This document shows positions 4,748 through 17,360 of a DNA stretch of 20,176 nt, piece by piece. Source of the stretch: a virus (taxonomy: Duplodnaviria; Heunggongvirae; Uroviricota; Caudoviricetes); IMG/VR virus record IMGVR_UViG_3300015179_000039; one strand, given 5' to 3'. The position numbers and the translations under genes are program-made. The notes beneath the pieces are model-generated. The model was not told the origin of the DNA. It searched no databases and saw only the letters and a list, made by a program, of their open reading frames with translations. Each line of letters begins with the position of its first letter. Within the stretch, counting starts at the first letter, position 1.

Positions 4748-7700
4748 GCGTCGTATCCCCCCTGATCGCTGTAGTTACTCCTGGCTTTTGCCTTCAGCCT
4801 GCGTTCACGTTCATCAAGCTGGCGTGCCACCTCCCGCGCAATATCCTGCGCACTTTGTCCTGGCTGCGTCTGAATGATGATCTGCGTCGGTGCCTCAATC
4901 CGTTGAACGAGCGGCACAGTGGCTGCGCGACTCACAATTGCTTCTCCACCTTTCGCGGGAAGTGCCAAAGGGTGCAACGGTGGAAGCTCTGCTGGCGCGG
5001 CAGCAACGCCCATCATTCCGGCAACAACGGCAGCCAGTGCAGCTGTATTTCTCCGGCTGGTCACATTTGCCGGGCCGTTAACAATTTCCGGCCCGTTTTC
5101 ACCGACGATGCCAAACTGCCCGCGCGGGATATACCCGCCGCTGTCATACATCCCCGCAAAGCCATATCCCCATGATGGAAAACCACCCGATGGCATCATC
5201 ACTTTACCGTCTGCATTCACCGTCGCAGGTTGCTGACGCGTCACGCTTTCCGGCAGTTTTGCCTTTGCGGCCTCTTTACTGACAATGCCGAGCTTCTCCA
5301 GCAACCAGGAAACGCCGGATTTCAGGGAGTCCAGCGGATGCATGACCATATTCAGCCCTTCTGCCAGTGCCTCCCCGAATCGTCGCCCCATTGCCGCTGC
5401 GCTCTGCAGTTCGGCAGAGGTCGACTTAACGGGCGTCAGCAGATCAGTAAACCAGCCCCACAGCGCCTGCACTTTGTCGCCAATCCACTGGAACACGGGC
5501 TTAAGCGGTTCGAACGCTGCACTGATGGGACCTGCCGCCGCTTTGAATCCTTCCACCACGCCACCGAGAAATGCGGTGATGGGTTGCCAGTATTTCCAGA
5601 CAACCAGCGCCACGCCCGCCAGTGCAGTAACCACAAGACCTATCGGACTGAGCAGAGCACCTAACAGACCAGATATGGCATACAGGGTAACGCGCAGCAT
5701 CGCCAGTGGACCAGATGCCAGTACTCGCAGCACCGTGCCTGCGGCGGCCAGTCCACCGCGCAGTACCGCCAGAGGATTCATAAACATCACAGCAACAGCA
5801 CGTAAACCGGATAATCCAGACCGCAAAAGTGCAACCGGCGCACCTGCTACAGTTTTCAGGACATTTCCCGTCAGTGATGCCGTGCGGCGCAAAGACGACA
5901 ACGGCGCAGTAAGTAAACCTGCGGCGTTGCCCGATGAAGCAAGCCCGCGTCGCAGCAGTGCCAGTGGTGCGCCAGCCAGCCAGGACAACGCGCTGCTTGT
6001 TCGAGTTACTGCTGCCGTAACGGAAGGTAACGTTTTGATACCCAGCACAGAGAATCCCAGACGGATCACTGCCAGCGGCCCCAGCACTGCAGCCAGCGCC
6101 ACCGCTAAGGTGCCGAGGCCGACGGTAACCGCAGCCACAACAGCCGATGCTTTCATCAGTGTGCCTGTCAGTTCCGGGTTAGCTTCCACCCAGCGACGCA
6201 ACGCCCCCGTGACGCTTTTCACCGTGTACAGAATATCCATCAGCGGCTGGCGCAGCGTTTCGCCCAGGCTGCTGAAGGTGTTCTGCGCTCCGGTTTTGAC
6301 CAGCAACCACTGCGCAGAAAGTGAGTCTTTGTTGATGTCGGATTCTTTCTGCATGGAACCGAGCGCATCATTGCCCGCTGTCAGTTTTAGCTGGCGCTGC
6401 AGTTCCGGCAGGTTGTTTGCCAGTTTCGCCGCGTCATCACCAAACTCTTTACCAAACAACATGGTCATGGCAGACAGACGCTTGTCCTGCGGCAGTGCGT
6501 TCACCTTCTCCAGCACACGCTGGATAGTTCCCATCGCATCCTTCGTCATCTGCTTTTCAATCACTTCAGGATTGAGTTTCAGCAGATTCATCCCTTCAAA
6601 GAAACTCTTGCTTTGCATGGTGGCAATGGACAATTCACGCACCATCGCGTTTGCTGCACTGGCTGCAACCTCCGGCGCAGCGCCCAGTGTCAGAAAGGTA
6701 GAACCCAGTGCCGCCGCTTTACGATAATCCAGACGGTCAGCCACACCGCCCAGACGTTGCATCACATCAATGATGTCCGCCCCTTTCGACATGGCGTTAT
6801 CATCCAGATAGTTCAGCGCATCGCCGAGCTGTTCAATATTGCGGGTAGGTATTTTGTAGAGCTGGGCGATTTTCCCCAGACTTTCTGACAGTTCATCCGC
6901 TGGCAGCTCAAAGGCTGTTGCCGCCTTTGCTGCCGTACTGGCGAAGGCCAGCAGGTCACGTTTCTGGTCTTCCCAGCTGTCGTCAGGGTTTGCGACGTTC
7001 ATGCGCGCACCACCTTCAACCAGTGCAGCGAAGTCCACCGCACCGTTTTCCATCGGCAACTGTTCGCTGGCAGCCTTGATGGCATCCTGCATTTCATAAA
7101 AACGTGCAGTGCGGTTGCCATTATCGTCACGCAGACCATTGACCTGCTTTGCCACACCTTTCATGGCATCTTCCATGCTGGTATAGCTTTTTACTGCCGC
7201 CATCACTGGCGCACCCATTGCCAGCCCTGCAGCCGTGGTAGTGGCTCCGGCTCCTGCAATACGGTCGCGCACCTCCAGCGAACGGGCATAACTGGCACGC
7301 GCCGCATTCATCCTGCGCTGAGCTTCACCCAGTCGCTTCAGCCGCGCCTCCTGTTTCGACAATTCCTGGTTATAACGTGATGTTTCACGGGCTAAACGGG
7401 CAGTTGCTCCCGCATCATCTTTCGCAGAAATTCCCGCCCGGTACAGTTCTGCACGCACAAGCGCCGTTTGCTTCTGCAAATATTTTTGTTGTTCTTCCAG
7501 GCGTTGGACTGCCAGCGTTTGCCGACCTAAAGCCACAAGGTGCCGTTGTGATGGTTGTTCCATCGCCTCCAGCTCAGAGCTAAGCAAATTAGCCTTCTGT
7601 CTGGCATAGTTCAGCCTGTCGCCTAACTTCTTGTTATCGGCCTGCAGCTTGCGAAATTTTTCCAGGCTGTTACCCGCCTGATTGAGTTGCTTTAATGCGT

Positions 7701-7821
7701 CACGGGAGTTTCTGATTGCACCAGCCAGCTCTTTCGAACTGGCCTGTGCAGCACGGAATGGGCGGGTGAGTTTGTCAACCGCATTAAGAATGACCTGCAG
7801 GCGCAGGTTATTATCACTCAT
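4744..7821 (-). CDS. T: tail tape measure protein
   Basis: 1025-aa ORF with a coiled-coil-rich N-terminal half and Ala/Gly/Leu-rich degenerate repeats near residues 580-720, in the P2 gpT position after E/E'. Several long plus-strand ORFs in 4855-6888 are antisense artefacts of this GC-rich gene. Confidence 0.9.
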   Translation of the reverse strand: MSDNNLRLQVILNAVDKLTRPFRAAQASSKELAGAIRNSRDALKQLNQAGNSLEKFRKLQADNKKLGDRLNYARQKANLLSSELEAMEQPSQRHLVALGRQTLAVQRLEEQQKYLQKQTALVRAELYRAGISAKDDAGATARLARETSRYNQELSKQEARLKRLGEAQRRMNAARASYARSLEVRDRIAGAGATTTAAGLAMGAPVMAAVKSYTSMEDAMKGVAKQVNGLRDDNGNRTARFYEMQDAIKAASEQLPMENGAVDFAALVEGGARMNVANPDDSWEDQKRDLLAFASTAAKAATAFELPADELSESLGKIAQLYKIPTRNIEQLGDALNYLDDNAMSKGADIIDVMQRLGGVADRLDYRKAAALGSTFLTLGAAPEVAASAANAMVRELSIATMQSKSFFEGMNLLKLNPEVIEKQMTKDAMGTIQRVLEKVNALPQDKRLSAMTMLFGKEFGDDAAKLANNLPELQRQLKLTAGNDALGSMQKESDINKDSLSAQWLLVKTGAQNTFSSLGETLRQPLMDILYTVKSVTGALRRWVEANPELTGTLMKASAVVAAVTVGLGTLAVALAAVLGPLAVIRLGFSVLGIKTLPSVTAAVTRTSSALSWLAGAPLALLRRGLASSGNAAGLLTAPLSSLRRTASLTGNVLKTVAGAPVALLRSGLSGLRAVAVMFMNPLAVLRGGLAAAGTVLRVLASGPLAMLRVTLYAISGLLGALLSPIGLVVTALAGVALVVWKYWQPITAFLGGVVEGFKAAAGPISAAFEPLKPVFQWIGDKVQALWGWFTDLLTPVKSTSAELQSAAAMGRRFGEALAEGLNMVMHPLDSLKSGVSWLLEKLGIVSKEAAKAKLPESVTRQQPATVNADGKVMMPSGGFPSWGYGFAGMYDSGGYIPRGQFGIVGENGPEIVNGPANVTSRRNTAALAAVVAGMMGVAAAPAELPPLHPLALPAKGGEAIVSRAATVPLVQRIEAPTQIIIQTQPGQSAQDIAREVARQLDERERRLKAKARSNYSDQGGYDA

Positions 7822-10144: not shown

Positions 10145-10717
10145 TCAGGGGGATTCATTGCTCTTATTTGCCGGAAATTTTCTATAAATTGTGGAAACAC
10201 CTACATCAAAAATCAGTGCAATACGCTGTCTTGATTCTCCAGCCTCGAGTAAACGTCCAATCTGTGCCCACTGTTCGGTGGTCAACTTAGGACGGCGTCC
10301 ACCTACTCTGCCTTTGGCGCGAGCTGCAGCAAGCCCCGCCCTGGTACGTTCAACTATCAGTTCGCGCTCCATTTCAGCCAGGGCCCCCATGACATGAAAA
10401 AAGAAACGGCCCATTGGGGTACTGGTATCAATACTGTCAGTCAGGCTTCGGAAATTCACGCCGCGCTGGCGCAACTCTTCTATCAGCGTAACAAGATGCC
10501 GCATACTGCGCCCCAACCTGTCCAGCTTCCAGACAACCAGTGTGTCACCTGCCAATAGTGTCCTGAGCAGTTTTTTAAGCCCCGGTCTGTCGGACTTAGT
10601 GCCACTGATTTTGTCCTCAAAAATCCGCTCACATCCCGCGCAGTTCAGTGCATTACGTTGCAAATCGGTGTTCTGGTCATTTGTTGATACGCGTACATAG
10701 CCAATAAGCATGATCAT
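10145..10717 (-). CDS. serine recombinase, DNA invertase (Hin/Gin/Pin/Cin/Min family)
   Basis: 190-aa ORF with N-terminal resolvase catalytic motif (IGYVRVSTNDQ, catalytic Ser) and a C-terminal HTH (GESRQRIALIFDVGVSTIYRKF). Lies adjacent to an inverted-repeat-bounded tail-fibre cassette. Confidence 0.93.
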   Translation of the reverse strand: MIMLIGYVRVSTNDQNTDLQRNALNCAGCERIFEDKISGTKSDRPGLKKLLRTLLAGDTLVVWKLDRLGRSMRHLVTLIEELRQRGVNFRSLTDSIDTSTPMGRFFFHVMGALAEMERELIVERTRAGLAAARAKGRVGGRRPKLTTEQWAQIGRLLEAGESRQRIALIFDVGVSTIYRKFPANKSNESP

Positions 10718-10738
10718 CCCCCTGAATAAAAACCGGAG

Positions 10739-11113
10739 ATGATGCCAGTTAGCCGTTATCTCTGCATTTTCTTAAACGTTGGTTTGGGAGAAGCGGCAAA
10801 ACGAAATGTGGGAACAGGGGAAAATCAGATACCTGATATGTCATCATATGCATCAGGTTCAGGCTGGCGAAAAATGCCAGATGGTTCAATTGAACAGTGG
10901 GGACGAATTAGTTTTCCTGATGAACACGGGCCTGTATCCGCCAATGTTTCATTCCCGATTCCATTTACACAGACACCGGGCATTGTAATTGTGTGCGATG
11001 GTGGTTTCGGGGGCGGGAATATGTGGGGGGCGACCAACTGGAGCACTACCGGCTTCATAGCTCACTGCAATTATGGTCTTGAAGGTGGTGCGTTTTTCGC
11101 TAAGGGTTGGTAA
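10739..11113 (+). CDS. silent alternative tail-fibre C-terminal cassette (Sv'-like)
   Basis: The ORF has no credible own start. It shares the LGLGE junction with H at the crossover site and continues with an unrelated Gly-rich C-terminus (...[14 protein letters not shown]...). Only codons after about 10792 would be used after inversion. Confidence 0.7.
10767..10792. repeat. recombination site (hix/gix-like), invertase-proximal
   Basis: ttttcttaaacgttggtttgggagaa; its reverse complement TTCTCCCAAACCAACGTTTAAGAAAA resembles Hin hixL (TTCTTGAAAACCAAGGTTTTTGATAA, recalled from memory). Inverted partner of the site at 12577-12602. Coordinates within 2 nt. Confidence 0.6.
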
Positions 11114-11556
11114 TGATGAAATATCTGTACGTAAACAACCTGGCATATCCTTACGAACTTCAGTCTCTTTATGTTGAAAAAGGTGAATGGCCGGAAGAAA
11201 AAGGTGTTGATATAGACGAAGTAATTTTCAGGGAATATTTCTATGATACACCACCAGAAGGAAAATACAGATGTGTCGGAGAGGATGGACTGCCTGCATG
11301 GGCAGATATTCCTCCACCAACACGTGAAGAACAAATTGCATCAGCCGAAACTAAAAAGCAGCAATTGATTAATCAGGCCAACGAATACATCAACAGTAAA
11401 CAATGGCCAGGTAAAGCATCAATTGGTCGTCTGAAAGGTGAGGAACTGGCGCAATATAATTTGTGGCTGGATTATCTGGACGCACTGGAACTGGTCGATA
11501 CTTCCGGTGCGCCAGATATTGAATGGCCTACGCCTCCGGCAGTTCAGGCCAGATGA
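11107..11556 (+). CDS. tail fibre assembly protein (alternate, partner of the silent cassette)
   Basis: 149-aa ORF with the C-terminal tail-fibre-assembly signature (...[25 protein letters not shown]), shared with the convergent tfa at 11528-12130. Start overlaps the end of the Sv' cassette. Confidence 0.85.
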
Positions 11557-12130
11557 CATCCGGCGCGGTGCTGGTATCTGTTGCCGTCACCGCGTCAATG
11601 TAATCCAGCACAGCGTTAAGCCGGGTTGTTTCTGCCTGCGTCAGTTTACGTCCGGCCTGCAATTTCAGTTGAATCAGACTGATGGAAGCCATTGCAGTAT
11701 CAATCAGCGACTGGCGCTGTGCTTCTGCTGCATCTACTGCGGCGCTATGCTGTGCCTCGGTATCCGTCACCCATTTCTCACCATCCCATTTATCGTATGG
11801 CGTTAATGGGGCGATAGTGGTTGTATTTTCAGGGTAATCACCCGGAGCTGTGATTTCTTTTGATTCTCCTGTTTCAGTGCTATAGACCGTTTCACCGCGA
11901 TGGTCTGGCACATATTCCCATGAGTTAAGATCTGCAGAACGGCAAATTGCATAACCAGCTTTATATGAGCTAGGAGCATCTAAACAGGAACTTGCCGGGA
12001 TACCGACGCCGACAGCGATATATTCATTTGATGTGGAAATATATTCCCGTGTTTCGCCATCATAGTTATAGACGGTAATATTCCCCGCCTTCGTGGCAAT
12101 AAGCTCGATATTTAATACGGCTTTATTCAT
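11528..12130 (-). CDS. G: tail fibre assembly protein (currently expressed orientation)
   Basis: 200-aa ORF immediately downstream of H, with C-terminal ...[25 protein letters not shown] typical of gpG/Tfa chaperones. Confidence 0.85.
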   Translation of the reverse strand: MNKAVLNIELIATKAGNITVYNYDGETREYISTSNEYIAVGVGIPASSCLDAPSSYKAGYAICRSADLNSWEYVPDHRGETVYSTETGESKEITAPGDYPENTTTIAPLTPYDKWDGEKWVTDTEAQHSAAVDAAEAQRQSLIDTAMASISLIQLKLQAGRKLTQAETTRLNAVLDYIDAVTATDTSTAPDVIWPELPEA

Positions 12131-15141: not shown

Positions 15142-15487
15142 TCTCTGCTCCTGTTGATACGGAAAGGGACACAGGCACACCGTTATTCCGCCGCCCGGTC
15201 AGCTCCACCACCATAGAACCGTCAAAGTTGCTGTTGATGGTGATGGAATCCAGCGTCAGCCGTGGCTCCCAGCGACTCAGCGCCACATACACTGCCGACA
15301 TGACCTGCAGGCGTAATGCCGGATTTTGTGGCTAATCTATCAGTGCCGACAGTAGGGAACCATATTCCCGACGGGCAATGCGGCTACCCTGCGGCGTCAG
15401 CAGAATGTCCCGCACCGACTGGCGCAGATGGTCAATATCAGTAATGACTTTGCCGCTGGTATTGTTCATCCCGCTATAAAGCGTCAT
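15128..15487 (-). pseudogene. W: baseplate protein W interrupted by an in-frame TAG (amber) at codon 52
   Basis: Reading the minus strand from the ATG at 15487 (ATGA overlap with the V stop) gives MTLYSGMNNTSGKVITDIDHLRQSVRDILLTPQGSRIARREYGSLLSALID, then TAG at about 15332-15334, then 67 more in-frame codons (PQNPALRLQVMSAVYVALSRWEPRLTLDS...) ending 13 nt inside J. The ORF track shows no minus-strand ORF of 60 aa or more across this interval. Confidence 0.7.
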
Positions 15488-16062
15488 ACCGGGCCTCCGG
15501 TTGTGTCGCCGCCTTTCAGGACGCCAGTATGCTGATGTGCATCAACCACAATTCCGTTAGAACTCATTGCACCGCCGCCCTGGGTAACACCACCATTGAT
15601 CACTACTTCGCTGTTAATACGCGTGCGGTCAGCCTCCAGCACAAACTCACTGGTTTTCAGGGTGATGTTGTCGGCAGCCTCAATGACCATGGATTTGATG
15701 CCCCTGACATACCAGCGCCCGGTGGCGGGTTCGTATTCAAACCAGCCACCGTCAGGATGTTCTGTCACGCAGGCGTCCGCCGACGTCGAAGGTGGCGCGA
15801 ACTGATTCGAATAGACAGCGGGCAACGCAAAGGCGGTTTCCAGATTGCCTCCCAGACTCAGCAGCACCACCTGCTCACCTTCCGATGGTCGCCACCATGT
15901 GCGGGCATTCCCGGCACGCAGCGTCAGCCAACTGATCCAGTTAGTTTCAAGGTCGCCCGTTTTCACCCGGCAAAGCCAGTTCTCCCGGTCCACTTCGGTA
16001 ACTACACCTGTGCGGATCAGGTTGGTGATAAGGCGCATGATTTCGGTTAATTGTGCGTTCAT
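15484..16062 (-). CDS. V: baseplate spike/hub protein V
   Basis: P2 V-like sequence from the ATG at 16062 (MNAQLTEIMRLITNLIRTGVVTEV...), about 192 aa. The track ORF 15484-16305 adds an N-terminal extension through AT-rich non-coding DNA, which I reject. Confidence 0.9.
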   Translation of the reverse strand: MNAQLTEIMRLITNLIRTGVVTEVDRENWLCRVKTGDLETNWISWLTLRAGNARTWWRPSEGEQVVLLSLGGNLETAFALPAVYSNQFAPPSTSADACVTEHPDGGWFEYEPATGRWYVRGIKSMVIEAADNITLKTSEFVLEADRTRINSEVVINGGVTQGGGAMSSNGIVVDAHQHTGVLKGGDTTGGPV

Positions 16063-16108
16063 AGATATATGATGACAGATGAAAATTTGTTTATAACTTC
16101 TTGCAAAT

Positions 16109-16126
16109 TGTGGTATCGATGGTACA
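16109..16126 (-). promoter_or_regulatory. candidate Ogr-binding element (TGT-N12-ACA) of late promoter PV
   Basis: tgt-ggtatcgatggt-aca centred about 55 bp upstream of the V start codon, closer to the ATG than expected for a -55 site. Overlaps the likely promoter of the divergent AT-rich gene. Confidence 0.35.
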
Positions 16127-16165
16127 AATTGACAAAAGGATAAAAAACAACCAATAGGTGGATAA

Positions 16166-16972
16166 ATGAGTGTTATGAATCCAATAAGTTCTAATATATT
16201 TAATGCTGAATTTTTAAACACCCCGGCAGCGGCACTTGCCGCATGGATTTCCATTATTGGAGCTGTTATAACTTTGGTGACGATAGTTATAAGAGCACTA
16301 TTCAAATATAGAAAATCTCATGATGTAATTTTGAAAAAATCAGGAATACCTGCGTTTATATTAAATTTCTTTCTTATAAAAATATCATTAAAAAGGCTGC
16401 CTACTATCACATGGGCTGAAAAATCATTCACGGTTCTATTTTCGCTTCTTTTTTTGTGTGCAATTTATCTTTTTGGTCCAGTTTTCATCCAAGCCATTAG
16501 AACCCCACCAAATAGCACATTGCTTTATTGGATAAAGTCCGGTGAATCATTTTATATGTCAAAAAAAATGGCGACTGCAGCTACAATATTAACCACTCCT
16601 GATTGGGAAATATCAAAGGATGATTGCGAAGAGTCATCCTCTGCCAGTACAGAGAAGTACAAATCATTAACTATCGAACATAAAGAAATTCTTTGTAAAC
16701 TACTAACCACTGATGAAGGGAATGCTTACATTGATGAAGAAGTCAAGAATTTCGTTAAAGACAAATTTTTTATCTATTCCTTTGCCCCAACAACTATATT
16801 TATTCTATTATGGATTTCTTTGGGTTTTATACTGACCATTCACTATTCTAAAAAAGTTAGAAAATATATTCTAACTGAACAAAAAAATGCAATTCATTGG
16901 GCATATGGTGAATTCAAGACAGAAGGAATCTATTCAATATATCAAGAGTTAGAACATAAGACTCACCATTAA
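16166..16972 (+). CDS. AT-rich moron gene: hypothetical multi-pass membrane protein
   Basis: 268-aa ORF with ATG start and an AGGTGG Shine-Dalgarno 6 nt upstream. GC content is visibly far below the flanking tail genes. Predicted TM helices near residues 20-45, 88-110 and 205-230 (possibly one more at 60-75), plus a charged loop of about 95 aa. No motif I recognise. Confidence 0.7.
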   Translation: MSVMNPISSNIFNAEFLNTPAAALAAWISIIGAVITLVTIVIRALFKYRKSHDVILKKSGIPAFILNFFLIKISLKRLPTITWAEKSFTVLFSLLFLCAIYLFGPVFIQAIRTPPNSTLLYWIKSGESFYMSKKMATAATILTTPDWEISKDDCEESSSASTEKYKSLTIEHKEILCKLLTTDEGNAYIDEEVKNFVKDKFFIYSFAPTTIFILLWISLGFILTIHYSKKVRKYILTEQKNAIHWAYGEFKTEGIYSIYQELEHKTHH

Positions 16973-17360
16973 GACCCAGCAGGCGGCGCTCTGCGTAACG
17001 GACCTCCGGTCCTTTGCGACTGACGCGATCACGCAGGCCGTAATGGTGAACACGGGCAATACGCTGCACCTTGCCTTCAAACTGTACGCTGGCAGAGTCG
17101 GCGCTGGCGGCAGTTTTCAGGTATTTTGTGGTGCGCAGCTTTGCAAACATCTGACGTTTGATGCGGCCTTTTTTGCTGCGTGCTGTTACCCTGCGCGGTT
17201 CATAACTGCTGCCATCTGGATTGCGCTGCATCCTGATATTCTGCTGCTGTGTCCGGCGCAGTTCCTGCGCCAGCTGGCGCATCATGCGGCTTCTCGTGGC
17301 TGGTTCCAGATTCGCCAGCAAGGCACTCAGCCAGTCGTCCACCTTCTGCAGTTCAGCCAC
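16914..17360 (-). CDS. S: tail completion protein S
   Basis: 148-aa ORF (MAELQKVDDWLSALLANLEPATRSRMMRQLAQELRR...) in the P2 gpS position after R. Its last 19 or so codons lie in AT-rich DNA antisense to the moron gene. Confidence 0.85.
   Translation of the reverse strand: MAELQKVDDWLSALLANLEPATRSRMMRQLAQELRRTQQQNIRMQRNPDGSSYEPRRVTARSKKGRIKRQMFAKLRTTKYLKTAASADSASVQFEGKVQRIARVHHYGLRDRVSRKGPEVRYAERRLLGLNGESYVLTLDILNRFLLS

What the first reader, a model, noticed from the sequence alone, without database searches (positions are those of the whole stretch)
16063..16972. AT-rich moron between V and S encoding an unknown multi-pass membrane protein: candidate exclusion/defence gene
Seen in sequence: an 807-bp plus-strand ORF, opposite to every neighbouring phage gene, sits between baseplate gene V and tail-completion gene S. 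Its base composition is conspicuously AT-rich against GC-rich flanks, which marks it as horizontally acquired cargo. It has its own AGGTGG ribosome-binding site and AT-rich upstream region. The 268-aa product has 3-4 predicted TM helices and a charged, Ser/Glu/Lys-rich loop of about 95 aa, with no catalytic motif I recognise. Established knowledge: P2-like phages carry non-essential morons at fixed positions (old, tin, Z/fun), and I recall a low-GC orf30 at the S-V junction of P2 of unknown function, but I cannot confirm homology. Inference: a prophage-expressed membrane protein at such a site is a plausible superinfection-exclusion or abortive-infection effector, or a lysogenic-conversion factor.
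Basis: partly seen in the sequence, partly recalled or inferred. Interest (0 to 1): 0.78.

Follow-up and report, generated by a model that had tools for sequence, protein, structure and literature searches.

The report
Unknown membrane-protein gene in P2-like prophage
A real, horizontally acquired gene sits between two tail genes of a P2-like E. coli prophage and encodes an inner-membrane protein of an uncharacterised family (DUF6216) that bacteria keep even after the prophage decays; it may block other phages, but nothing yet shows this.

Summary
Window 16166-16972 (+) is an intact 268-aa ORF with GC 0.32 against 0.54 elsewhere, antisense between baseplate gene V and tail gene S.

It is not unannotated. 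It scores above Pfam's cut-off for DUF6216, and RefSeq names it "DUF6216 family protein". It occurs once each in 111 of 5,426 complete E. coli genomes, including REL606 and BL21(DE3).

It occupies the slot that holds the non-essential Orf30 in phage P2. Most relatives have this slot empty. Others carry at least seven unrelated single antisense genes, mostly membrane proteins.

The product is predicted to have three TM helices (N-terminus out, C-terminus in). Its 92-residue periplasmic domain carries a Cys pair and a Trp that are invariant across the family. It matches no known fold, defence or phage family.

dN/dS is 0.12-0.25, and the gene survives intact in decayed prophages. A conserved upstream footprint suggests its own promoter, overlapping the P_V activator site.

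Function is unproven. My leading guess (about 0.35) is narrow-range superinfection exclusion like P22 SieA. A host-fitness role unrelated to phages is nearly as likely. Phage-sensitive E. coli B carries the gene, which argues against broad defence.

Overall it is an ordinary kind of element whose function is unknown but easy to test.

The parts
15484..16062 (-). Gene V (baseplate spike), left border of the slot
   Evidence: Pfam Phage_base_V 5e-18 and GpV Apex 6.7e-6. Homology to the empty-site phage runs up to 16064.
16065..16962 (.). Cassette: 898 bp with no homology to the ~115 bp found at an empty S/V junction
   Evidence: Alignment of the window with Escherichia phage 500465-1 (L006): homology ends at 16064 and resumes at 16963. 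GC 0.32. No flanking repeats.
16109..16126 (.). TGT-N12-ACA dyad, the presumed Ogr/Delta-type activator site of late promoter P_V
   Evidence: The same dyad lies 47-48 bp from V's start in the window, the empty site and three other cargo variants. P2's record annotates an activator-binding site at the equivalent place. Its function here is inferred.
16101..16106 (+). Putative -35 (TTGCAA) of the cargo gene's own promoter
   Evidence: The block CTTGCAAA is conserved in all 14 upstream regions aligned, including prophage remnants without V and L037 at 35% protein identity. The consensus scan did not call it. Inferred.
16120..16128 (+). Putative extended -10 (TGG TACAAA), 16 bp after the -35, overlapping the right arm of the P_V dyad
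   Evidence: The block TGGTACAAAT is conserved in all aligned loci, whereas the left arm (TGT) of the dyad is lost in the V-less remnants. Inferred; there are no transcript data.
16156..16161 (+). Shine-Dalgarno sequence AGGTGG
   Evidence: Read directly from the sequence. GGAGG or GGTGG is conserved at this position across homologous loci.
16166..16972 (+). DUF6216-family CDS, 268 aa plus stop
   Evidence: ORF. Pfam PF19723 scores 49.1 bits against a cut-off of 27.3. RefSeq WP_022645427.1 is named 'DUF6216 family protein'. dN/dS is 0.12-0.25.
16226..16297 (+). TM1 (residues ~21-44); the N-terminal tail (1-20) is predicted periplasmic
   Evidence: Hydropathy 2.58. The N-tail averages 0.34 K/R across the family. 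The 3-TM N-out/C-in model obeys the positive-inside rule in 29/29 members, the 4-TM model in 0/29.
16427..16495 (+). TM2 (residues ~88-110)
   Evidence: Hydropathy 2.52. AF2 helix 83-112 with pLDDT about 90.
16496..16771 (+). Predicted periplasmic alpha/beta domain (residues 111-202), with invariant W147 (16604-16606), C154 (16625-16627) and C177 (16694-16696)
   Evidence: AF2 gives four strands followed by helices, pLDDT about 85-93 over most of the domain. W147, C154 and C177 are the only invariant residues besides M1 across 29 members down to 16% identity. The disulfide is inferred.
16772..16843 (+). TM3 (residues ~203-226)
   Evidence: Hydropathy 2.07. It is part of the long AF2 helix 183-248.
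16844..16969 (+). Basic cytoplasmic C-terminal tail (residues 227-268)
   Evidence: 7 K/R in this protein; family mean net charge +3.9. Mean pairwise identity is 0.79 for residues 227-249 and 0.74 for 250-268.
16914..17360 (-). Gene S (tail completion/virion morphogenesis), right border. Its last ~17 codons (16914-16962) lie in cassette DNA, and 16914-16972 overlaps the DUF6216 CDS antisense
   Evidence: Pfam Phage_tail_S 8e-40. The S C-terminus reads ...GLNGESYVLTLDILNRFLLS here against ...GVNDDVEAMTRDMILQWLAG at the empty site. dS is depressed in the overlap.

Best explanation
**What it is (shown, about 0.9 confidence).** It is a single-gene accessory cassette, a "moron", in the S/V slot of a 186/P2-like E. 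coli prophage. This slot lies between the end of one late operon and promoter P_V, and in phage P2 it holds Orf30. The gene encodes a DUF6216-family protein that is under purifying selection.

**Predicted architecture (well supported by prediction).** The protein sits in the inner membrane with a conserved 20-residue periplasmic N-tail and three TM helices. A basic cytoplasmic loop includes an amphipathic stretch. A 92-residue periplasmic alpha/beta domain is held by an invariant Cys154-Cys177 pair, probably a disulfide, and an invariant Trp147. The cytoplasmic C-tail is basic. No catalytic residues are conserved, so it probably acts by binding rather than by catalysis.

**Expression (inferred).** It is transcribed antisense to the late genes. 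The likely promoter is a weak sigma-70 type with an extended -10 (TTGCAA, 16 bp, TGgTACAAA) overlapping the right arm of the P_V activator dyad. That would leave it on in the lysogen and possibly occluded once late transcription is activated.

**Function (my commitment, about 0.35).** It is a narrow-spectrum superinfection-exclusion protein that works like P22 SieA. From the inner membrane, its periplasmic domain would interfere with the genome-delivery apparatus of particular incoming phages. It would protect both the lysogen and any bacterium that keeps the gene after the prophage decays.
For: **Real and selected**
- The ORF is intact in 111 E. coli genomes and in 32 homologue clusters across Enterobacterales.
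- dN/dS is 0.12-0.25 wherever dS is 0.25-1.2.

**Cargo**
- The empty site and the alternative cargos are described.
- The AT-rich composition is shown.

**Kept for the host**
- The gene is intact where V, S or R are fragmented or gone (L002-L005, L011-L014, L022, L031).
- It stands alone at the same ybjL attachment site with no prophage left (L037, 35% identity).
- dN/dS between two remnant copies is 0.18.

**Mobile single-gene unit**
- It is also cargo between Q and the holin in a lambdoid-type phage.
- It occurs as a lone chromosomal gene.

**Topology**
- The 3-TM N-out/C-in model obeys positive-inside in 29/29 members, the 4-TM model in 0/29.
- The Cys pair in the big loop is invariant.
- The AF2 model has pLDDT 74.6, about 90 over TM2, the loop domain and TM3.

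**Promoter**
- The phylogenetic footprint persists in V-less remnants.

**Resemblance to Sie proteins**
- P22 SieA is a prophage-expressed inner-membrane protein with 3 predicted TM and no signal peptide. It blocks DNA injection only by relatives and exists as types under 30% identical with the same TM layout (PMC10883804).
- DUF6216 alleles at the same slot diverge to 47-50% identity, or beyond DNA recognition in L051, while the flanking V and S stay at 82-86%.
- The periplasmic domain is the least conserved soluble part (0.54, against 0.71-0.83).
- The slot is rich in membrane proteins, and one cargo matches the PADLOC defence candidate PDC-S15.
Against: - There is no functional or expression datum of any kind. 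No paper mentions the family's function or these accessions.
- Nothing matches in PADLOC, PHROGs or NCBIfam, and no fold homologue exists.
- E. coli B strains (REL606, BL21(DE3) and others) carry an intact copy differing by 7 residues. They are nonetheless the classical sensitive hosts of T1-T7. From memory, P2 also grows in strain B, where the hybrid P2 Hy dis arose. So any protection is narrow, weak or absent, or the gene is silent there.
- The periplasmic domain shows no positive selection (dN/dS 0.07-0.24).
- Long-term retention under purifying selection, with strongly conserved cytoplasmic parts, fits a housekeeping-like benefit as well as it fits defence.
- The promoter is non-consensus and the scan did not call it. 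DNA with 32% GC is a typical H-NS target, so silencing is possible.
Confidence: 0.35

Rival explanations
1. It is a lysogenic-conversion or host-fitness factor unrelated to phages. As an envelope protein it would modulate a host membrane process, such as a transporter, a sensor kinase, envelope stress or colonisation, through its conserved cytoplasmic loop, C-tail and N-tail.
For: - The gene is retained under purifying selection long after the prophage has decayed, down to 35% identity at the same attachment site and in ordinary chromosomal neighbourhoods.
- The most conserved parts are the N-tail, the cytoplasmic loop and the C-tail, not the periplasmic domain.
- It is present in phage-sensitive E. 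coli B.
- It matches no defence library.
Against: - No domain, partner gene or context points to any particular host process.
- Neighbours differ from locus to locus.
- P2 hotspots studied so far yield mainly anti-phage cargo (PMC9122126).
- The family is tiny, with 50 representatives among 1.84 billion proteins, and tied to temperate phages.
Confidence: 0.27
2. It is an abortive-infection effector: a membrane protein that, when triggered by infection, depolarises or permeabilises the inner membrane and kills the cell before phage are released.
For: - TM proteins are common suicide effectors in defence systems (PMC9122126).
- One of 29 family members gave a marginal PADLOC hit to a '2TM effector' model, E 0.0012.
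Against: - It is always a single gene with no conserved sensor or partner.
- The window protein itself has no PADLOC hit.
- A constitutively made toxin would be unlikely to persist under purifying selection in decayed prophages and in laboratory B strains.
Confidence: 0.12
3. It serves the phage's own life cycle, for example as a holin-like lysis-timing factor or an assembly accessory, and is not a lysogen-expressed gene.
For: - The 3-TM N-out/C-in topology with a charged C-tail resembles class I holins.
- TM1 gives sub-threshold hits to the HP1 holin family: Pfam E 0.032, 14.7 bits against a cut-off of 28.8; PHROG holin E 0.27.
- A distant member lies directly upstream of a holin, on the late strand, in a lambdoid-type phage.
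Against: - It is antisense to both late operons in every P2-like locus.
- Most functional relatives lack it.
- At 268 aa with a folded periplasmic domain it does not look like a holin.
- The window already has a holin, lysozyme and spanin lysis cassette.
- It is retained where the lysis and structural genes are gone.
Confidence: 0.07
4. The transcript, not the protein, is the active part. With no terminator it would run antisense into S, damping late-gene expression of this prophage or of superinfecting relatives. The precedent is the BTP1 antisense RNA STnc6030.
For: - The CDS overlaps S by 59 nt in the convergent direction, and no terminator-like structure follows it.
- An antisense RNA within late genes mediates exclusion in prophage BTP1 (PMC7067206).
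Against: - Protein-level purifying selection acts across the whole ORF.
- The residues invariant across the family are a Trp and two Cys.
- Members in other contexts, and other alleles at the same slot, do not overlap S.
- At best this is a secondary effect.
Confidence: 0.04

Closest known systems
Pfam DUF6216 (PF19723), annotated in RefSeq as 'DUF6216 family protein' (WP_022645427.1; E. coli B allele WP_000115390.1)
   Same: The protein scores above the curated cut-off. Full-length relatives were recovered by profile search. RefSeq gives the same annotation at the same locus.
   Different: Nothing differs; it is a member. The family has no known function, and the only paper that mentions it is unrelated.
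Phage P2 Orf30 (NP_046770.1), the non-essential antisense gene between S and V
   Same: - The same slot, orientation and low GC (0.34), and a similar length (261 against 268 aa).
- The same 3-TM layout, with a two-Cys loop between TM2 and TM3.
- The same order of predicted secondary-structure elements, although the Orf30 model has low confidence (pLDDT 53.8).
   Different: - No detectable sequence homology: BLASTP E 0.42, no Pfam hit, hhalign probability 2.7%.
- The DUF6216 profile scores 3.2-3.7 bits, matched by 4-8% of shuffles. A truly divergent DUF6216 allele scores 37.9 bits.
Phage P22 SieA (superinfection exclusion A)
   Same: It is a prophage-expressed single gene whose product is an inner-membrane protein with three predicted TM domains and no signal peptide. 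Its allelic types are highly divergent yet keep the TM layout (PMC10883804). It serves here as a functional analogy only.
   Different: - SieA is 162-164 aa and has no large periplasmic domain.
- No sequence relationship is indicated: no PHROG family of any kind matches DUF6216. I did not run a direct SieA comparison.
- Blocking of DNA injection is shown for SieA and untested here.
P2 accessory-gene hotspots (old/tin next to the portal gene; Z/fun among the tail genes; tail/CI)
   Same: They are variable, AT-rich, non-essential cargo at a fixed position between conserved phage genes, differing among close relatives (PMC9122126; bioRxiv 10.1101/2024.10.15.618418; PMC13586616).
   Different: - The S/V slot is not one of the hotspots analysed in those papers.
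- It is usually empty and, in every case I examined, holds exactly one antisense gene.
- Only one of its cargo families matches a defence-candidate model.

Membership tests
Pfam DUF6216 (PF19723) | Score against the family HMM above the curated gathering threshold | tested here: met
   49.1 bits against 27.3, E 5.9e-13, covering residues 71-237 and profile positions 113-265 of 270. All close homologues carry the precomputed PF19723.
Pfam DUF6216 (PF19723) | Full-length relationship to other family members | tested here: met
   The profile search aligns positions 1-268 or 10-246 with proteins of 234-286 aa. W147, C154 and C177 are invariant across 29 members.
P2 Orf30 family | Detectable sequence homology to P2 Orf30 | tested here: not met
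   BLASTP E 0.42. hhalign E 0.017 with probability 2.7%. Shuffle tests give p about 0.04-0.08, against 37.9 bits for the positive control.
P2 Orf30 family | Position between S and V, antisense to the late operons, low GC, non-essential | tested here: met
   P2 record; window; empty sites in relatives.
Moron (Hendrix-type accessory transcription unit) | Present or absent between otherwise collinear related phages, with deviant base composition | tested here: met
   About 1,040 E. coli genomes have the V and S flanks, but only 108-111 have this gene. GC is 0.32 against 0.54.
Moron (Hendrix-type accessory transcription unit) | Own promoter | tested here: inconclusive
   The consensus scan found no + strand promoter upstream. 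A conserved TTGCAA-N16-TGgTACAAA footprint persists in V-less remnants. No transcript data were available.
Moron (Hendrix-type accessory transcription unit) | Own terminator | tested here: not met
   No terminator-like site in 15800-17300. The downstream fold is not significant, z = -1.48.
Known or candidate anti-phage defence systems (PADLOC-DB v2) | Match to a defence-protein HMM | tested here: not met
   No hits for the window protein at E up to 10. Across the 29 family members there are only two single marginal hits, E 0.0012 and 0.0092.
SieA-type superinfection exclusion | Prophage-encoded inner-membrane protein with about 3 TM and no signal peptide | tested here: met
   By prediction only: hydropathy and positive-inside statistics and the AF2 model. 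Membrane localisation has not been shown.
SieA-type superinfection exclusion | Blocks DNA injection of specific superinfecting phages | not testable with these tools
   This needs plating and DNA-entry assays. An intact copy in phage-sensitive E. coli B limits any such effect to a narrow range.
SieA-type superinfection exclusion | Sequence homology to SieA | not tested
   No SieA sequence was compared directly. No PHROG family matches, which makes homology unlikely.
Class I holin | Small (about 70-150 aa) 3-TM protein encoded in the lysis cassette and matching a holin family | tested here: not met
   The protein is 268 aa with a 92-aa folded loop. The Phage_holin_2_3 hit is below the cut-off, 14.7 against 28.8 bits. 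The gene is antisense and separated from the lysis genes.
Abortive-infection sensor/effector pair (RexAB-like) | A conserved adjacent partner gene | tested here: not met
   It is a single gene in every context examined.

The most novel reading that the evidence does not exclude
The S/V junction of P2-like phages may be a dedicated "expression socket". The right arm of the P_V activator dyad would double as a resident extended -10 promoter, so it would drive whichever single antisense cargo is plugged in, and activator binding in the late phase would shut it off. On this reading DUF6216 and P2 Orf30 are extremely diverged members of one superfamily of 3-TM, disulfide-bearing inner-membrane proteins. 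That superfamily would be a new class of superinfection-exclusion factors that block genome delivery by particular phages.
Probability: 0.15. Interest if true: 0.65.

Novelty: new member of a known kind. Interest (0 to 1): 0.4.

Why it matters
If DUF6216 proves to be an exclusion or defence protein, it would add a new single-gene, membrane-based family. It would also show that the little-studied S/V (orf30) slot is a fourth cargo hotspot of P2-like phages, one biased towards membrane proteins.

The gene is present in REL606, BL21(DE3) and their derivatives. The question can therefore be answered with existing strains, public RNA-seq and proteomics data, and a simple knockout plus phage panel.

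If instead it is a host-fitness factor, it would be a clean example of a prophage gene domesticated and kept after the rest of the phage has decayed. As things stand, it is an ordinary moron of unknown function.

Tried and rejected
1. **Family libraries.** PADLOC, PHROGs and NCBIfam gave nothing meaningful for the protein, and PADLOC and PHROGs gave nothing for the 29-member alignment.
2. **Phage records.** tblastn against 50,697 phage records found no match.
3. **Fold searches.**
   - The AFDB libraries were unavailable.
   - Foldseek against the PDB and BFVD gave best E values of 0.9 and 0.5.
   - A sequence profile against PDB chains gave a best E of 0.63.
4. **Homology to P2 Orf30.** It was tested four ways and is not supported. 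The Orf30 AF2 model was too weak (pLDDT 53.8) to serve as more than a hint.
5. **Positive selection in the periplasmic loop.** None was found.
6. **A 4-TM topology.** It would put the loop in the cytoplasm, and it is rejected, with 0/29 members obeying positive-inside.
7. **Transposon-like ends, a terminator, or an RNA family in the cassette.** None was found.
8. **Locus search with the broad alignment.** It failed for lack of conserved stretches, so I repeated it with the narrower alignment.
9. **Literature.** No paper I could search mentions the accessions or a function for DUF6216. The hotspot papers do not treat the S/V slot. The BTP5 (P2-like) lysogen transcriptome reports nothing there.
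10. **The record called E. coli 'strain C'.** I first took it for the classical P2 indicator strain. It carries exactly the defective prophage of E. coli B, so I drew no conclusion about P2 sensitivity from it.
11. **The exact promoter motif.** It does not travel with distant family members into other contexts.
Full report
**1.

The window has an ATG-initiated ORF at 16166-16972 on the + strand: 807 bp with its stop, 268 aa. Every neighbouring gene is on the minus strand.
- The left neighbour (15484-16062) is baseplate gene V: Pfam Phage_base_V 5e-18, plus the GpV Apex motif.
- The right neighbours are S (16914-17360; Phage_tail_S 8e-40) and R (P2_Phage_GpR 4e-47).

GC in 200-bp windows falls from 0.52-0.62 in the flanks to 0.285-0.37 between 16000 and 16999. 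The ORF has GC 0.323 and GC3 0.257, against 0.537 for the rest of the window. AGGTGG lies four bases before the ATG.

**2. Where the window comes from**

The S-insert-V stretch is 99.9% identical to E. coli chromosomes. There it lies in a 186/P2-like prophage integrated between ybjL and rcdA, and RefSeq already names the ORF "DUF6216 family protein", WP_022645427.1. The first 2.6 kb of the window are host genes, including the aspartate:alanine antiporter gene ybjL.

**3. It is cargo in a recurrent slot**

About 1,040 of 5,426 complete E. coli genomes match the V and S flanks, but only 108 have the whole stretch. The gene itself is found once each in 111 genomes.

In sequenced P2-like phages the junction is usually empty: the match spans 1,318 bp instead of 2,101. 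Alignment with such an empty site shows homology ending at 16064, two bases past V's start codon, and resuming at 16963. So 898 bp replace about 115 bp.

The cassette therefore also encodes the last ~17 residues of S. These differ from the empty-site version but keep the protein at 148 aa. The DUF6216 ORF overlaps S convergently by 59 bp, and synonymous divergence is depressed in that overlap, as expected for dual coding. There are no flanking repeats. Exchange by homologous recombination through V and S is the simplest mechanism; this is an inference.

**4. This is the P2 orf30 slot**

The P2 record reads, in order: S, the terminator of the O operon, Orf30 ("nonessential", antisense), the activator-binding site of P_V, then V.

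Other phages and prophages carry other single antisense genes in the same slot. All are AT-rich, with GC 0.31-0.38.

| Cargo | Size | Nature |
|---|---|---|
| Cartapus gp14 | 176 aa | soluble |
| SEN8, E. coli H111 | 311 aa (SEN8) | FRG-domain protein; the only PADLOC match in the slot, defence candidate PDC-S15, E 3e-31 |
| RE-2010, L047 | 283-288 aa | soluble |
| L046, L048 | 250-253 aa | 2 TM |
| L050 | 218 aa | 2 TM |
| L049 | 307 aa | 4 TM |
| L051 | 231 aa | very divergent DUF6216 allele |

The hotspot papers I could read analyse the old/tin, Z/fun and tail/CI hotspots. None treats the S/V slot, orf30 or DUF6216.

**5. The protein family**

The product scores 49.1 bits against Pfam DUF6216, whose cut-off is 27.3.
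- A word-indexed search found 32 clusters, all in Enterobacterales and all DUF6216.
- An exhaustive profile search of 1.84 billion representatives found only 50 hits, mostly 234-286 aa. The family is small.
- Across 29 members, down to 16% identity, the only invariant residues besides the initiator Met are W147, C154 and C177; F129 is nearly invariant.
- PADLOC, PHROGs and NCBIfam give nothing meaningful.
- tblastn against 50,697 phage records finds nothing.
- The only paper containing "DUF6216" is unrelated.

**6. Architecture**

Hydropathy gives three strong TM segments, at about 21-44, 88-110 and 203-226, and a weak amphipathic one at 60-75.

I scored positive-inside statistics over all 29 members. 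A 3-TM, N-out/C-in model is obeyed by 29/29 and a 4-TM model by 0/29. Segment 60-75 reaches TM-level hydropathy in only one member. This places the 92-residue loop, with its invariant Cys pair, in the periplasm, where a disulfide is the natural reading (inference).

The AlphaFold2 model has pLDDT 74.6, rising to about 90 over TM2, the loop domain and TM3. It shows four short strands followed by helices that lead into a long helix containing TM3.

No fold match is informative:
- Foldseek against the PDB and BFVD gives best E values of 0.9 and 0.5.
- A sequence profile against PDB chains gives a best E of 0.63.
- The AFDB libraries were not available.

No conserved catalytic-type residues exist, so a binding or blocking role is more likely than an enzymatic one (inference).

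**7. Relation to P2 Orf30**

Orf30 (261 aa, GC 0.34) has the same layout: three TM segments, at 4-31, 106-132 and 219-241, and a loop with two Cys. A low-confidence model (pLDDT 53.8) gives the same order of elements.

Homology, however, is not demonstrable:
- BLASTP gives E 0.42, and Orf30 has no Pfam hit.
- hhalign pairs the two Cys and TM3, but at probability 2.7%.
- A DUF6216 loop profile scores 3.2 bits, and 155 of 2,000 shuffles do as well.
- The full profile scores 3.7 bits, matched by 77 of 2,000 segment-preserving shuffles.
- The divergent L051 allele, used as a positive control, scores 37.9 bits.

I therefore treat Orf30 as a positional and architectural analogue, not as a shown relative.

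**8. Selection and persistence**

Nei-Gojobori dN/dS for the whole gene is 0.12-0.25 in every pair with dS between 0.25 and 1.2. The periplasmic domain gives 0.07-0.24, so there is no sign of positive selection.

Mean pairwise amino-acid identity by region:

| Region | Identity |
|---|---|
| N-tail | 0.83 |
| Cytoplasmic C-tail | 0.79 |
| Cytoplasmic loop | 0.71 |
| Periplasmic domain | 0.54 |
| TM3 | 0.50 |
| TM2 | 0.46 |

I examined 28 loci holding relatives.
- In 17, full-length V lies on one side and S on the other, with constant geometry. In three of these the contig ends inside S.
- One further locus has V but no detectable S.
- In ten loci the DUF6216 gene is intact although V, S or R are truncated, fragmented or absent. 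Some of these are the same situation seen in several assemblies.

In intact phages the protein can be only 47-50% identical while V and S remain 82-86% identical (L015, L033, L034).

More distant members turn up in other settings:
- One, at 35% identity, stands alone between ybjL and the rcdA-like TetR-family gene, at the same attachment site with no prophage left.
- Others are ordinary chromosomal genes.
- One lies in a lambdoid-type phage between Q plus a methyltransferase and the holin.

dN/dS between two remnant copies is 0.18. The gene is therefore a self-sufficient unit that is kept for its own sake.

**9. Expression signals**

The consensus scan finds no + strand promoter upstream and no terminator.

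The 103-bp gap to V must also hold P_V. A TGT-N12-ACA dyad lies at 16109-16126, the same 47-48 bp from V's start as in the empty site and in three other cargo variants. It corresponds to the annotated activator site in P2.

An alignment of 14 upstream regions shows two blocks conserved in every one: CTTGCAAA (16100-16107) and TGGTACAAAT (16120-16129). They persist in remnants that have lost V, and in L037, whereas the left arm of the dyad is lost in those same remnants.

I read this as the gene's own promoter: -35 TTGCAA, a 16-bp spacer, then the extended -10 TGgTACAAA. It would give a start near 16135 and a leader of about 30 nt (inference). Because it overlaps the activator dyad, activator binding late in infection could shut it off (speculation).

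A similar TGnYACAA(A/T) string sits at the right arm of the dyad in the empty site and in five of the other cargo variants. L051 instead has a canonical TATAAT immediately after the dyad, and L047, L049 and RE-2010 lack the TGn prefix. This raises the possibility of a promoter resident in the slot. The exact motif does not accompany distant members into other contexts.

**10. What it most likely does**

Shown:
- It is real, selected, mobile, single-gene cargo.

Predicted with good support:
- It is an inner-membrane protein with a periplasmic, probably disulfide-bonded domain.

Not shown:
- Expression, localisation or any phenotype.

The closest functional analogue I can document is P22 SieA. 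It is a prophage-expressed inner-membrane protein with three predicted TM domains and no signal peptide. It blocks DNA injection only by P22's relatives, and it occurs as types less than 30% identical that share a TM layout (PMC10883804).

These points fit that model:
- The alleles at the slot are highly divergent.
- The periplasmic domain is more variable than the other soluble parts.
- The slot is rich in membrane proteins.
- The gene is retained in cryptic prophages.

These points count against it, or at least against broad defence:
- The defence libraries give no match.
- There is no positive selection.
- The cytoplasmic parts are strongly conserved.
- An intact copy differing by seven residues sits in REL606, BL21(DE3), C41(DE3) and related B strains. 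Strain B is the classical sensitive host of T1-T7 (established knowledge).
- From memory, strain B also supports P2 growth; P2 Hy dis arose there.

My estimates are: narrow exclusion 0.35; a host-fitness role unrelated to phages 0.27; abortive-infection effector 0.12; phage life-cycle role 0.07; an antisense-RNA role as the main function 0.04. The remainder is something else.

**11. Novelty and verdict**

The sequence, its family and the slot were all already on record. What is new here is descriptive:
- the exact cassette boundaries, and the fact that the cassette supplies the C-terminus of S;
- the family-wide topology and the Cys/Trp signature;
- persistence under purifying selection after prophage decay;
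- the conserved promoter footprint overlapping the P_V control site;
- the repertoire of the S/V slot, which is rich in membrane proteins;
- the gene's presence in standard laboratory B strains.

I class it as a new member of a known kind: a prophage moron of unknown function. I score interest at 0.4. It is not surprising to a specialist, but it is a clean and cheap candidate for experiment.

Noticed in passing
window 16914-16972 (S 3' end / DUF6216 3' end): The cassette supplies the last ~17 codons of tail gene S, with a different sequence but the same protein length of 148 aa. These codons overlap the last 19 codons of the DUF6216 ORF antisense. Synonymous divergence is depressed in the overlap. 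Other cargo types at the slot do not overlap S.
   Followed up: partly
window 16109-16129; L006, L007, L008, L046, L048, L050, L051 at the equivalent position: The right arm of the P_V activator dyad plus the next bases reads like an extended -10 (TGnYACAA(A/T)) pointing into the cargo. This holds for the empty site and five other cargo variants. L051 instead has a canonical TATAAT right after the dyad, and L047, L049 and RE-2010 lack the TGn prefix. It may be a promoter resident in the slot.
   Followed up: partly
S/V slot in L007-L010 and L046-L051: The slot holds at least seven unrelated single antisense cargo families, all with GC 0.31-0.38. Most are membrane proteins with 2, 3 or 4 TM. 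The FRG-domain cargo matches the PADLOC defence candidate PDC-S15 (E 3e-31). None of the others has any Pfam or PADLOC match.
   Followed up: partly
window 10145-12130: This looks like an invertible tail-fibre segment. A resolvase/invertase-type recombinase gene (10148-10717, minus strand; Pfam Resolvase 1e-52) sits next to a tail-fibre C-terminal fragment and tail-fibre assembly genes on opposite strands (10739-11553 on +; 11531-12130 on -). It occupies the position of P2's Z/fun hotspot.
   Followed up: partly
E. coli genomes matched: Every listed genome with DUF6216 had only one P2-like V-S region (places_in_record = 1). Over all matching records there were 1,224 places in 1,049 records. 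This could hint at exclusion of further P2-like prophages, but the genomes are clonally related (many B-strain derivatives and near-identical clinical isolates), so it is not evidence as it stands.
   Followed up: no
L044 (NZ_CP029371.1, 'Escherichia coli strain C', cow's milk): This record carries exactly the defective 186-like prophage of E. coli B: the same protein accessions, the same internal deletions and the same retron next to the portal gene. It should not be assumed to be the classical P2 indicator strain C.
   Followed up: partly
L001 30271-33461 and L044/L045 20750-22798 (outside the window): The portal-adjacent (old/tin) hotspot of these same prophages carries other cargo. The window's closest relative has a 'putative phage abortive infection protein', two ASCH-domain proteins and an ATP-binding protein. 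The E. coli B prophage has a retron (reverse transcriptase plus effector).
   Followed up: no
H71/H72 (NZ_CP148400.1, NZ_CP148585.1): Two ~55-kb 'non-mobilizable plasmid' records from human single-cell samples carry the DUF6216 gene and S at 98% identity. They may be a phage-plasmid form or an assembly artefact.
   Followed up: no
L034 (IMGVR_UViG_2927256687_000002) 6001-6798: This locus has intact J, W, V and a DUF6216 gene (50% identity) but no detectable S or R downstream, although about 6 kb of flank is present. The right side of the slot appears to be rearranged.
   Followed up: no
L041/L042 around 6199-7705: A distant chromosomal DUF6216 member is divergently paired with a Fic-domain protein and lies next to an MgtC-family gene in two independent assemblies. 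Whether the pairing means anything is unknown.
   Followed up: no
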